Assembly: GCA_951406725.2 (NCBI GenBank)
Contig: OX597838.1
Coordinates: 30,256,001-30,320,000 of the forward strand
DNA from: Octopus vulgaris
Lineage: Eukaryota
DNA: 64,000 nt
Reading direction: 5' to 3'
Part shown: piece after piece, positions 48,483 through 62,545 of the stretch
Layout: each line of letters starts with the position of its first letter
Numbering within the stretch: position 1 is the stretch's first letter
The notes under the pieces: generated by a model
The model's input: only the letters and a program-made list of their open reading frames with translations
Databases searched by the model: none
Told to the model about the DNA's origin: nothing
Made by a program: the position numbers and the translations under genes

Positions 48483-48517
48483 TATATAGCAAGTTCGTAG
48501 CCATACCGCTCTCATTC
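48483..48517 (+). promoter_or_regulatory. candidate core promoter: TATA-like box + initiator
   Basis: TATATAG starts at 48483 and the Inr match TCATTC has its A at 48514, which places TATA at -31; the ATG follows 48 nt after that A. Confidence 0.5.
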
Positions 48518-48561
48518 CATTGTCAGAATTCATTGGTAAACAGTCGAAGAATACTGACGCT

Positions 48562-48606
48562 ATGTGGTTTACAACTCTCAGCCTCTTAACATTGGCCGTT
48601 ACGGCG
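48562..48606 (+). CDS. coding exon 1 of a putative small secreted protein (signal peptide MWFTTLSLLTLAVTA)
   Basis: ATG in GCTATG context, hydrophobic 15-mer, strong donor GCG|GTGAGT, phase 0. Confidence 0.7.
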
Positions 48607-50230
48607 GTGAGTATTAAATTCTTTCGTTTTCCCTCTTGCATAAGCAATGCATGTTCGTCGTCCACATGCTTTCATTTATGTGTGTTAAGCACAGCATTAG
48701 AGAATTTTAGCTCTTATTTCTAGCAATGTAGGAGTTTTAACACCTTAGTCACACTCAGAGACGGTAATAATTCTTCCTTTTTTAGTGAAACATTGCACGT
48801 GTATTGCAGTGTTTTCTTTTTCATAACTGTATACCTACCTTTGCGCCCCCACCTGTATATATGTAAATATATATATATATATATATATATATATATATAT
48901 ATATATATATATTAGAAGAAATGAGGTAATCAGAAGATCGGATGGTTCATATTTATAGATATTTATTTATATATTACATTTTTTACATATATATATCATA
49001 TCATTCAGATTATTAGCGCTTTCTCCCATTCTAGTGGGGTTTTCAAATCAAATTAATTCCTTTGTGTATATATATACACACATACACATATAAAGGTGTG
49101 GCAAAAGTAGGTATACAGTTATGAAAAAAAAGAAATTAAAAGTTGGCCTTATTTTTTTTAAATATTTTTAATCATAAAAGTACGTTTATCATAACTATAA
49201 TAATGCTTTGATCGTAATTTTTATTTTATTTTATTATTTTTTTTTTGATAAAAATAAATGAGAATTGTATGTGTTGTCTTTCTTCGGGAATGTGCACCCA
49301 ACTGTGTGTGTATAAATATATATATATATATATATATATATATATATATATATATGTATACACACACACACACACACACACATATATATACATATGTGCA
49401 CACATGCATATATACATATATATATATGTATATGTATGTATGTATGTATGTATGTATCTATCTATCTATCTATCTATCTATCTATCTATATCTATCTATA
49501 TATATATATATATATATATATATATATATATATATATATATATATATATATATATGTTTCTTTATTAGCCACACAGGGCTGAACACAGAGGGGACAAATT
49601 ACAAAGTAGAGCTTTTCTTATTGGGGAGAAATATATATATATATATATATATATATATATATATATATATAAAGGAAGAGTAAGTACGGTTCGGCAGCTT
49701 CTTAATCTCTACAAATGTTTCGAAACGCACGAGGAATACCTAAGACTAGAACTGGTAGCATACCATAACAATACTTCCGGCTGTTTGGGAATTCTAAGCG
49801 TGAACGACCTCTGTTTGTACTCTTATACGTACTTAACAGAACACACCTCAACTATATATATGTGTGTGTGTGTGTGTGTGTGTGTGTGTGTGTGTGTGTG
49901 TGTGTGTGTGTGTGTGTGTGTGTGTGTGTGTGTGTGTGTGTGCGTGTGTGTGTGTGTGTGTGGTGTGCGCACGTGGACGAGCATGAATGGCTGTGTTGTA
50001 AAAAGTTTGCTTCCCAACCACATAGTATCAAGTTCAATCCCACTGCATGCCAGCTTGGGAAGGTGTCTTATACTATAGCCTCTGCCAGACCAAAGCCTTG
50101 TGAGTAGATTTGGTAAGCGGAAACTGAGCGAAGCGCGACATATATATATATATATATATATATATATATATATGATAGATTGTTAGCTCCTACATACATT
50201 TTTTTCTCTCCTTGTTTCTCTCCTGTGTAC

Positions 50231-50266
50231 CTTTCTGTAGAAGAGCGTAGGCTCGAAACGTAAAAG
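50231..50266 (+). ncRNA. minimal hammerhead-like motif (core CTGTAGA)
   Basis: CTTT-CTGTAGA-A-GAGC(GTAG)GCTC-GAAACGTA-AAAG; stem I differs in compensatory fashion from the 44097 copy. Confidence 0.65.
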
Positions 50267-51413
50267 ACTTTTTCTATTCCTGAGCGCTATACTAATACAT
50301 CTGTTTGTTTGTACAGCACCTGCCTTCGTCTTTTGTTTATTTTCGTAAAGTTTCCTTATATATATATATATATATATATATATATATATATATATATATA
50401 TATATATATACACACACACACACACACACACACATATATATATATATATATATATATATATATATATATACCGGAGTAAACACATAAATGTGAAACAAGG
50501 TGGAAAAAAGAGTACTCAAATACCAGTGGTAGAGTAATATGCTTTATTTTAAGCAGCAGAAAATTCAACAAAATTTTGAATTTTCTGCTGCTTAAAATAA
50601 AGTATATATATATATATATATATATGATGATTATATATACAGTATATATATTAATTGTATGATTAATTTATAGAATAAAGTTCTACAAATCCATAAATAT
50701 TTTTGTCAAAAATCGAGGAGTTAAGATGTTAAAACGTTGTAAGAAGCTTATTTAAATTTCTTACAATTTTTTATCATCTCCTCTCCTCTATTTTTGACAA
50801 ATATGATTGGATTTGAAGAACTTCCTTCCCTAAACTAATCATACACTTAATATTCTAATACTGCTTTTCATATCTTCACCAATTCACACCATTAAACTCT
50901 CAACAAAGTATGAAGAATCAAAGTTAGATGTCATAGGATCGCCGTTTCGATTCCCAGACCGGGCGTTGTGAGTGTTTATTGAGCGAAAACTCCTATTTTG
51001 GAAACCGCTCCAATTGAAGGAAGAATCCGCTTCAACCTTTTACACACGAATGTGTGTGTATGTGTATGTATGCATACATATATATATATATATATATATA
51101 TATATATATATATATATATATATATAATCTACTATATATGTGTGAAAAGGGCGAATGTTGTCTCACAAGTAGTTGTGCAGGTAAAAGTGTTAGTAAATGT
51201 GGTCGGACTAACCTGGATATTTGCACACCTGTGTTAAAATTAGTGGGGAGTTTGTATCGCAACTTTGAGTTTGCTTAATTGAAAGGTCAAAATTCCTCAT
51301 CTTTAAAATGTGGCCCGAGTAGACCCGAATGAAATCGGGTTATAATACTGGTATATGTATGTATGTATGTATGTATGTATGTATGTATGTATGTATGTAT
51401 GTATGTATGTATG

Positions 51414-59555: not shown

Positions 59556-59559
59556 GAAG

Positions 59560-59943
59560 TGGAGGCGCAATGGCCCAGTGGTTAGTGCAGCGGACTCGCG
59601 GTCGTAGGATCGCGGTTTCGATTCCCAGACCGGGAGCTGTGAGTGTTTATTGAGCGAAAACACCTAAAAGCTCAACAAGGCTCCGGCAGGGGGTGGTGGT
59701 GATCCCTGCTGTACTCTTTCACCACAACTTTCTCTCACTCTTACTTCCTGTTTCTGTTGTACCTGTATTTCAAAGGGCCGGCCTTGTCACTCTCTGTGTC
59801 ACGCTGAATATCCCCGAGAACTGCGTTAGGGGTACACGTGCCTGTGGAGTGCTCAGCCACTTACACGTTAATTTCACGAGCAGGCTGTTCCGTTGATCGG
59901 ATCAACCGGAGCCTTCGTCGTCGTAACCGACGGAGTGCTTCCA
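59560..59943 (+). mobile_element. tRNA-derived SINE, family 2
   Basis: Full-length match to 9532-9915. Confidence 0.85.
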
Positions 59944-61519
59944 CTATAGAGAGAGAAACTTATTTTACGTAATTAAATCACAATTTCACAAATTTTATTC
60001 AGGGGGCATAACTCGTATTTGTTCTGACAGAGTTATAACCCTTGCTCTTTTTCTGACCGTTTTGCTTTGACTTGATCGTTTAGAAGCAAAGTGTGTTGAT
60101 TTGATTCAATGCGTACAGAGTTCAAATCCTGGCGAGATCAGATTTGTCCCAAAATAAAAATCATTTCCTTTATCCTTTATCATTTTTGAACTGCGACCAT
60201 GCTGGGGCACCACATTTTATTCTTTTACTTGTTTCAGTCATTTGACGGCGGCCATGCTGCAGCACTGCCTTTAGTCAATCAAATCGACCCCAGGACTTAT
60301 TCTTTGTAAGCCCAGTACTTATTCTATCGGTCTCTTTTGCCGAACCGCTAATTGACGGTGACATAAACACACCAGCATCAGTTGTCAAGCAACAGACACA
60401 CACACACACACACACACACACACACACACACACACACACACACACACATACATATATATATAAATATATAGCCCCGGGCCGACCAATGCCTTGTGAGTGG
60501 ATTTGGTAGACGGAAACTGAAAGAAGTCTGTCGTATATGTGTATATATATATATGAGTGGATTTGGTAGACGGAAACTGAAAGAAGCCTGTCGTATATGT
60601 GTATATATATATATATATATATACACATATACGACAGGCTTCTTTCAGTTTCCGTCTACCAAATCCACTCACAAGGCATTATATATATATATATATATAT
60701 ATATACACATATACGACAGGCTTCTTTCAGTTTCCGTCTACCAAATCCACTTACAAGGCATTGGTCGGCCCGGGGCTATAGCAGAAGACACTTGCCCAAG
60801 ATGCCACGCAGTGGGACTGAACCCGGAACCATGTGGTTGGTTAGCAAGCTGTCGAACGAATCGATATCCGCACTTTTATTATTTATTTTTTTTTAAAGAC
60901 TGCTATTAATTCTATCGCTCGTCTTTTGCTGAACTGCTAAGTTGCATGAATCGAAACACACCAACACTGGTTGTCAAGCGGTGGTGCAGGAAAAACACAG
61001 AGAGAAAGAAACACACACTCACATACATACATACATACACACGCACACACACATGCACACACACACACACACACATATTTATTAAGCGGTGGTGGAGGTC
61101 AAGCTCAGATACAAAGAGATACGTACACACATACACACACACACATACACAAATATATATATATATACGGTGGGCTTCATTTAGTTTCCGTCTGCCAAAT
61201 CCACTCACAAGGCTTTGTTGAGCCCGAGACTATAGTAGAAGATACTTGCCTAAGGTGCCGCGCAGTGGAACTGAACCCGGAACCATGTGGTTGGGAAGCA
61301 ATCTTCTTACCACACAGCCACGCCTGTGCCTATGTACACTCACACACACACACACAGACAAATACAAATATACAGACACGCACACACACACACACACACA
61401 CACACACACACACACACACACACACACACACACACACACACACACACACACACACACATGTACATATATAAATTATTAAGGTGGCTATTCGCAATTTAGA
61501 ACCAATAGTTAAGATGTAC

Positions 61520-62245
61520 AGAAACGTTAGCTGTATTCCGTCTGCCGTTACGTTCTGAGTTCAAATTCCGCCGAGGTCGACTTTACCTTTCATCCTTCCG
61601 GGGTCGATTAAACAAGTACCAGTTACGCACTGGGGTCGATATAATCGACTTAATCCGTTTGTCTGTACTTCTTTGTCCTCTCTGTGTTTAGCGCCTTGTG
61701 GGTAGTAAAGAAATAGGTATTGCGTCTGTCTTAATGTTCTGAGTTCAAATTCCGCCGATGTCGACTTTACCTTTCATCCTTTCGGGGTCGATAAATTAAG
61801 TACCAGCTACGCACTGGGGTCGATGTAATCGACTTAGTACCTATGTATGTCCTTGTTTGTCCCTTCTGTGTTTAGCCCCTTGTGGGTAATAAAGAAATAG
61901 GTATTCCGTCTGCCGTTACGTTCTGAGTTCAAATTCCGCCGAGGTCAACTTTACCTTTCATCCTTACGGGGTCGATTAAACAAGTACCAGTTACGCACTG
62001 GGGTCGATGTAATCGACTTAATCCATTCGTCTGTCCTTGTTTGTCCCTTCTGTGTTTAGCCCCTTGTGGGTAGTAAAGAAATAGGTATTGCGTCTGTCTT
62101 AATGTTCTGAGTTCAAATTCCGCCGAGGTCGACTTTGCCTTTCATCCTTTCAGGATCGATAAATTAAGTACCAGTTACGCACTGGGGTCGATCTCATCGA
62201 CTGGTCCCCTCCCCCAAAATTTCGGGCGTTGTTCCTGGAATAGAA
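61520..62245 (+). mobile_element. MetaSINE with ~4 tandem ~185 bp internal units
   Basis: GTTCTGAGTTCAAATTCCGCCGA recurs at ~61552, 61736, 61920 and 62104. Two-unit versions occur at 35640-36035, 40840-41183(-) and 45648-46040. Confidence 0.85.
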
Positions 62246-62516
62246 AAAAATTAAGAACTTGTCTTCTCTAAAATTTTGACAATTAAGTGATTCGTTTAAA
62301 ATGTGGAATTTAGAAAATGTCTTTACGGGACACCAAAATTCAAATGGACAACCTTCAACTTCAGATATTAAGCGAAGCAACATTTTGTAATTTTATTTAT
62401 TCATTTATTTATTTATTTATTTATTTATTTATTTATTTATTGTTTTGACTTCTGTTTTGGTATTCTCTGGTGTTCCTGCCAATGGCGTGATTCTTGAATT
62501 ATTGGCACTTTTTCAG

Positions 62517-62545
62517 ATTGGCAACAGAAGCGATGTCATCGCTGA
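62517..62545 (+). CDS. candidate terminal coding exon 3 (D)WQQKRCHR*
   Basis: CTTTTTCAG acceptor preceded by over 100 nt with no AG dinucleotide; in phase 1 it joins exon 2 and stops at TGA 62543-62545. The true next exon could lie outside the window. Confidence 0.45.

What the first reader, a model, noticed from the sequence alone, without database searches (positions are those of the whole stretch)
48483..62545. Hidden small-exon gene encoding a short secreted peptide precursor
Seen: TATA-like box at -31 and an Inr (TCATTC), an ATG exon with a GTGAGT donor, a 55-nt exon with near-perfect splice sites 8.4 kb downstream, and a phase-compatible third acceptor. Spliced product: MWFTTLSLLTLAVTAFA|FSVDSNTLQTFLRDLQDWQQ-KR-CHR* (42 aa). 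Established: a hydrophobic N-terminus plus A-x-A cleavage motif plus dibasic KR is the layout of neuropeptide, hormone and toxin precursors. Inference: a lineage-specific cephalopod secreted peptide, with an amphipathic segment TLQTFLRDLQDW, that six-frame ORF calling cannot see. I do not recognise it as a known family. Exon 3 is the weakest part; the protein may be longer and continue outside the window.
Basis: partly seen in the sequence, partly recalled or inferred. Interest (0 to 1): 0.8.

Follow-up and report, generated by a model that had tools for sequence, protein, structure and literature searches.

The report
Start of a longer secreted-protein gene
The first two small exons of this likely octopus gene are real, but spliced contigs leave the second exon for sequence outside the window, so the roughly 1.5-kb transcript encodes a predicted secreted protein longer than the proposed 42-residue peptide, and its family remains unidentified.

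Summary
Half right. The ATG exon (48562-48606) and the 55-nt exon (56979-57033) are as described; the latter has the best-scoring acceptor of 6,740 AG sites in the window. In 4 of 4 public runs laid (four studies, four organism labels) one 1.4-1.56 kb contig covers exon 2 and leaves exactly at its donor, with no cover on the intron just after it. The letters that follow are the same in all four and are not the proposed exon at 62517; they are not in the window. So the 42-residue product and its KR site are not the main form. The frame stays open: at least 44 and at most about 490 residues. Protein, family, structure and literature searches found no relative, but they used only 18 true residues and lose power after 1-2 substitutions. 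Most likely an ordinary multi-exon gene for a secreted protein whose main part lies downstream; a longer, uncatalogued peptide precursor remains possible. Translating one contig would settle it.

The parts
48483..48489 (+). TATA-like motif at the end of a (TA)n/(CA)n microsatellite; function untested
   Evidence: sequence; TATA-type matches are very common in this window
48512..48517 (+). Inr-like TCATTC; proposed start 48514 not shown, some transcripts may start further upstream
   Evidence: contigs hold 81-133 nt before exon 2, implied 5' ends 48526, 48503, 48489, 48474 if all of it is exon 1
48562..48606 (+). coding part of exon 1: 15 uncharged, hydrophobic codons from the first ATG, phase-0 GTGAGT donor; predicted signal peptide completed by the first two codons of exon 2
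   Evidence: 14 probable-RNA runs hold 0.50-0.63 of the sampled words of 48485-48640 while two large runs hold 1.00
48607..56978 (+). intron 1 (8,372 nt): microsatellites, SINE-like repeats, a broken mariner-type transposase, 200-nt AG-free T-rich tract before the acceptor
   Evidence: Pfam Transposase_1 E 2.7e-16 in ORF 55668-56069; junction itself inferred, not printed
56979..57033 (+). exon 2, 55 nt, phase 0 to phase 1, 18 whole codons, amphipathic Cys-free stretch
   Evidence: best acceptor in window; covered from 56982 to 57033 by one contig in 4 of 4 runs, 0-1 other letters, leaving at the donor
57034..64000 (+). intron 2 of the main transcript, longer than 6,967 nt, runs out of the window
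   Evidence: no depth at 57042-57120 in 4 of 4 runs; start of the next exon absent from the window at up to 2 mismatches
62517..62545 (+). acceptor-like site and short frame proposed as exon 3; not used in the contigs seen; at most a minor alternative last exon
   Evidence: against; no poly(A) hexamer after it in the window. For: 137-nt AG-free stretch before it, 1 of 8 such sites among 3,762 + strand AGs

Best explanation
This is the 5' end of a spliced gene of at least three exons whose roughly 1.5-kb transcript continues outside the window and likely encodes an ordinary secreted protein much longer than 42 residues. Shown: exon 2 is spliced at 57033 to an exon that is not in the window, the frame stays open to at least residue 44, and 1,235-1,368 nt follow, room for up to about 490 residues. 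Inferred: exon 1 is joined to exon 2; residues 1-17 act as a signal peptide (A-F-A at -3/-1) that sends the protein into the secretory pathway. Most speculative (about 40%): the Cys-free amphipathic stretch is a short pro-segment clipped at the basic cluster K-Q-V-R-D-R that opens the true exon 3, releasing a folded mature domain encoded downstream.
For:: 4 of 4 runs laid (of 20 holders listed) have one contig of 1,408, 1,556, 1,520 and 1,489 nt on 56982-57033 that leaves at the GT donor with the same 30 loose letters; three contigs end within 15 nt of each other (1,353-1,368 nt after exon 2). The 81-133 nt before exon 2 do not lie on the intron (no depth at 56930-56971, masked part only 56945-56981), and their lengths predict the share of exon 1 words each run holds (expected 0.40, 0.59, 0.70, 0.73; observed 0.38, 0.56, 0.63, 0.63). 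Splice-site ranks. No dibasic pair in the first 44 residues of the supported frame. Not among the Octopus precursors in the stored parts of a molluscan neuropeptide catalogue.
Against: The protein beyond residue 44 was not seen, so 'folded, larger protein' rests on transcript length and priors; a short precursor with a long 3' UTR fits equally. The exon 1-exon 2 joint was not printed because the tool masked 56945-56981. The runs are RNA only by the tool's guess. No database protein with the exon 2 peptide was found, although an exact match would have passed in 40 of 40 simulated cases, which is a little unexpected for an ordinary annotated gene; I have no control that octopus proteomes are in that collection. 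No SignalP was available; the pro-segment cut site is only a pattern.
Confidence: 0.55

Rival explanations
1. A neuropeptide, hormone or venom-gland peptide precursor, but with a different and longer body: signal peptide, an amphipathic spacer, cleavage at the basic cluster in the true exon 3, and active peptide(s) encoded downstream, followed by a long 3' UTR.
For: Signal-peptide exon and Cys-free, charged N-terminal stretch; K and two R residues within six codons at the start of the true exon 3 could make a monobasic site, which the definition in PMC6425005 allows; no Pfam or PDB match for exon 2; no database protein found.
Against: No dibasic site or amidation signal in the 44 residues seen; motifs absent from the stored supplements of PMC6425005, which hold Octopus precursors (two files cut, line breaks can hide a motif) and from 8.4 million full texts.
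Confidence: 0.28
2. The first reader's 42-residue form exists as a minor isoform through an alternative last exon at 62517 inside intron 2.
For: Phase fits; 137-nt AG-free stretch before the AG, 1 of 8 such + strand sites (5 of them copies of one repeat) and no strong donor pattern in the next 680 nt, as for a last exon; contigs drop rare variants, and 15 contig pieces were not shown.
Against: 0 of 4 runs show it; acceptor rank 298 of 6,740, pyrimidine share 0.59 against 0.86 for exon 2; part of the AG-free stretch is a (TTTA)n microsatellite; no AATAAA/ATTAAA in the remaining 1.45 kb.
Confidence: 0.06
3. The signal peptide leads a membrane-anchored protein (type I or GPI-linked), not a released one.
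For: A cleavable signal peptide is shared by secreted and surface proteins (general knowledge); 1.36 kb of unseen transcript leaves room for an anchor.
Against: Nothing seen points to an anchor; a 1.5-kb transcript is short for most receptors (general knowledge).
Confidence: 0.09
4. The contigs come from a processed copy in DNA and this locus is silent or a dead duplicate.
For: The tool only guesses that three runs are RNA and gives no kind for the fourth.
Against: No depth on the intron after the donor in any of the four runs, so the locus itself is not in them as DNA; exon 2 is identical to the window in 3 of 4 and its splice sites are the strongest in 64 kb.
Confidence: 0.02

Closest known systems
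Molluscan proneuropeptides and peptide prohormones as defined and catalogued in PMC6425005 (passages and supplement searches seen)
   Same: N-terminal signal peptide; short charged, Cys-free segment after it; basic residues that could be a convertase site.
   Different: No dibasic site in the supported first 44 residues; no motif match in the stored catalogue; body of the protein unseen, so absence of a folded domain is untested.
Pre-pro secreted proteins with a short N-terminal pro-segment (enzymes, inhibitors, lectins; recalled class, no call)
   Same: Signal peptide on its own tiny first exon, short helical segment, basic cluster, transcript long enough for a 300-450 residue protein.
   Different: No Pfam or PDB match for the 18 exon 2 residues; no specific family can be named.
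Uncharacterised octopus neuronal marker genes such as obimac0022194, weakly luqin-like by HHblits (PMC9815951, passages of text and of its supplement seen)
   Same: Precedent that expressed octopus genes can lack clear annotation and turn out to be divergent members of known peptide families.
   Different: No sequence link: none of four motifs occurs in that supplement, of which I saw no sequence in the passages shown; expression site of this gene is unknown.

Membership tests
   0 of 4 runs; all four continue into other sequence
Proneuropeptide / peptide prohormone | N-terminal signal peptide | tested here: met
   first ATG, uncharged core with Kyte-Doolittle 8-residue mean 2.46, small residues at -3/-1; rule-based, no SignalP
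Proneuropeptide / peptide prohormone | peptide(s) flanked by mono- or dibasic convertase sites | tested here: inconclusive
   KR lies only in the unsupported exon; supported frame has K and two single R in the first codons of exon 3; rest unseen
Proneuropeptide / peptide prohormone | no folded protein domain in the precursor | not testable with these tools
   about 1.33 kb of the transcript was not readable; no genome held
Proneuropeptide / peptide prohormone | match to a catalogued molluscan family | tested here: not met
   0 hits for 4 motifs in 6 supplement files of PMC6425005, Octopus entries present in files 1, 3, 4; files 2 and 3 were cut when stored, so not complete
Proneuropeptide / peptide prohormone | mature peptide detected by mass spectrometry | tested here: inconclusive
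   motifs absent from supplements of three Octopus vulgaris proteomes: salivary gland, mucus, ink; no nervous-tissue peptidome searched
Known folded secreted protein family | domain or sequence match | tested here: inconclusive
   no hit in Pfam, PDB, 5.8-billion collection, 1.84-billion representatives or ESM Atlas; queries held only 15-18 true residues; searches had no power

The most novel reading that the evidence does not exclude
An uncatalogued, octopod-restricted secreted precursor (neuropeptide, hormone or gland peptide) whose amphipathic N-terminal piece is cut off at a monobasic site and whose active peptide is encoded on exons downstream of the window, missed by protein databases because its first exons are tiny and its introns exceed 7 kb.
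Probability: 0.2. Interest if true: 0.62.

Novelty: new member of a known kind. Interest (0 to 1): 0.3.

Why it matters
As it stands it is a correct sighting of a gene start with a wrong last exon, a common gene layout in large animal genomes. It would matter if the full transcript proves to be a secreted precursor with no known family: PMC6425005 reports no lineage-specific expansion of peptide families in cephalopods but notes that its homology-based search may have missed divergent or lineage-specific ones. The transcript is already assembled in several public runs, so the question is cheap to settle.

Tried and rejected
Whole-genome look-up: none held. Contig depth (16-393) is not used as an expression level. 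The 2.1-2.3 kb contigs at 56878-56913 (5 mismatches in 36 nt, loose on both sides) are chance matches to T-rich sequence, not this gene. Protein searches: exon 2 frame against 78-2000 residue proteins, 2 candidates, none at E<=10; against 24-77 residue proteins, no candidate; exon 1 read-through, 36 candidates, none at E<=10; phmmer of 1.84 billion representatives, 0 at E<=0.001. Power controls: exact 18-residue match passes one search's test in 40 of 40 trials, 26 of 40 with one change, 6 of 40 with two, 3 of 40 with three, 0 of 40 with four; could not have detected even an exact match. Pfam, PDB, ESM Atlas, Rfam: nothing for the exons. Exact look-up of 6 window ORFs: 0 of 6 in the collection, so no taxon label. 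Metagenome contigs: protein query too short for the tool; exact DNA pattern 0 matches. Literature: 0 papers with any of 3 motifs; supplement searches negative in PMC6425005, PMC7693380, PMC10138644, PMC10142993, PMC9712504 (one file unreadable), PMC9815951, PMC12343078; supplements of the bioRxiv venom preprint 10.64898/2026.04.09.716377 were not seen and could list the protein. Earlier scan findings: none near, by sequence or in relatives; the 7 shown by words concern other organisms. A homology search with the spliced N-terminus was not run, so the family question stays open. Resemblances I considered from recall only (NPF/NPY helix, MANF, cathepsin B and serpin N-termini) lack their key residues and were dropped untested.
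Full report
Observation. With a simple weight matrix of my own over both strands, the acceptor at 56979 ranks 1 of 6,740, the donor at 57034 4 of 8,042, the donor at 48607 16 of 8,042, and the acceptor at 62517 only 298 of 6,740. The ATG is the first from 48474 on, with an in-frame stop upstream. The promoter motifs carry little weight: TATA-type matches occur 999 times and Inr-type 103 times on the + strand. 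The window is otherwise microsatellites and interspersed repeats (I did not read 19301-25999 base by base); intron 1 holds a broken transposase (Pfam Transposase_1, E 2.7e-16). The repeat landscape looks like Octopus to me; that is recall, and no call names the organism.

Transcript evidence. A run search with 48485-48640 listed 24 runs, 20 of them holders from 11 studies. Fourteen small runs guessed to be RNA hold 0.50-0.63 of the 16 sampled words and two very large runs hold 1.00, the pattern expected if the former hold only the exonic part. I laid 4 of the 20 holders on 56720-57120. In 4 of 4, one contig (1,408, 1,556, 1,520, 1,489 nt) lies on 56982-57033 with 1, 0, 0 and 0 other letters and leaves exactly at the donor; there is no depth on the intron after it. 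The 30 loose letters are identical in all four and differ from the proposed exon 3. Their start is absent from the window at up to 2 mismatches, so the true exon 3 lies beyond 64000 and intron 2 exceeds 6,967 nt. Read in frame they give a junction Asp, nine more sense codons and the first base of a further sense codon, so the protein has at least 44 residues; 1,235-1,368 nt follow exon 2, three contigs ending within 15 nt of each other, which caps the frame at about 490 residues if the contigs are complete. The left-hand joint was not printed because the tool masked 56945-56981. It is implied: the 81, 104, 118 and 133 nt before exon 2 do not align to the unmasked intron, and if they are exon 1 they predict word shares of 0.40, 0.59, 0.70 and 0.73 against 0.38, 0.56, 0.63 and 0.63 observed. 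Three of the four reach past the proposed start at 48514, one past the TATA motif; contigs cannot show a start, so this only weakens the TATA/Inr reading. Limits: RNA status is the tool's guess, contigs drop rare variants, and 15 pieces were not shown.

The site at 62517. It is not used in the contigs seen. It does have a 137-nt AG-free stretch before it, one of 8 such + strand sites among 3,762 AGs (5 are copies of one repeat), and no strong donor pattern follows within 680 nt; but part of the stretch is a (TTTA)n microsatellite, the pyrimidine share is 0.59 against 0.86 for exon 2, and no poly(A) hexamer follows in the window. A rare alternative last exon is not excluded (about 6%).

Identity. 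Only window-encoded pieces could be searched. The exon 2 frame found nothing at E<=10 among 78-2000 residue proteins (2 candidates) and no candidate among 24-77 residue proteins. Simulation shows an exact 18-residue match would pass in 40 of 40 trials, but 26, 6, 3 and 0 of 40 with one to four substitutions, so a cluster representative from a sister species could be missed, and I have no control that octopus proteomes are in the collection. The exon 1 search and the 1.84-billion phmmer search had no power. Pfam, PDB, ESM Atlas and Rfam gave nothing for the exons. No paper in the library holds any of three motifs. Supplement searches were negative for PMC6425005 (Octopus precursors are present, two files cut; main-text passages read), PMC7693380, PMC10138644, PMC10142993, PMC9712504, PMC9815951 (text passages) and PMC12343078; for the five others than PMC6425005 and PMC9815951 I saw only the search listing or the supplement search result. 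Of the preprint 10.64898/2026.04.09.716377 I saw passages only. Other literature searches were seen as listings and gave no lead to this gene.

How it likely works. Shown: splicing at the exon 2 donor to an exon outside the window, an open frame past residue 43, a transcript of about 1.5 kb. Inferred from established rules of signal peptides: residues 1-17 (uncharged hydrophobic core, A-F-A at -3/-1; a cut after residue 15 is also possible) target the protein to the ER and are removed. The next stretch is Cys-free and amphipathic (moment 0.68, 0.7% of shuffles) and runs into a basic cluster, K-Q-V-R-D-R, at the start of the true exon 3. My best guess is a short pro-segment ahead of a folded mature domain (whole reading 0.55; the pro-segment step about 0.4). 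Rivals: a longer peptide-hormone-type precursor with a long 3' UTR (0.28), a membrane-anchored protein (0.09), the 42-residue form as a minor isoform (0.06), a processed DNA copy (0.02).

Comparison and verdict. It works like any pre-(pro-) secreted protein. Membership of the neuropeptide precursors is not established: the signal peptide test is met, the cleavage-site test is inconclusive once the KR exon is removed, and the catalogue match is not met. The gene is real and was well spotted, the specific peptide is not supported, and the family is unknown because the informative part lies outside the window; it may already be annotated in public octopus gene sets that I could not query. Novelty: new member of a known kind at most on present evidence. 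Interest 0.3; 0.62 if it proves an uncatalogued precursor (probability about 0.2).

Noticed in passing
window 16488-25878: Tandem array of a roughly 1.95-kb unit, about five copies at 94-96% identity to the first, each a mix of SINE-like pieces and AG-rich microsatellites; could be a young segmental repeat.
   Followed up: partly
window 55424-56310: Frameshifted mariner-type transposase remnant inside intron 1, same strand as the gene (Pfam Transposase_1).
   Followed up: partly
window 2830-4490, 26450-27080, 29030-29540: Broken stretches that read like 3' parts of non-LTR retrotransposons (by eye; no family scan).
   Followed up: no
window 15096-15235 and 33976-34318: Minisatellites with 19-bp and 68-bp units.
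   Followed up: no
window 56982-57033, run X1: The organism A contig has one other letter in exon 2 and is about 120-130 nt shorter at its 3' end than those of organisms B, C and E: a species difference, another poly(A) site or an incomplete contig.
   Followed up: no
window 48474-48514: Two contigs hold 118 and 133 nt before exon 2, implying starts upstream of the proposed Inr and across the TATA-like motif.
   Followed up: partly
window 57123-57208: Unusual pentamer microsatellite (ACGTC, 17 copies) 90 nt after the exon 2 donor.
   Followed up: no
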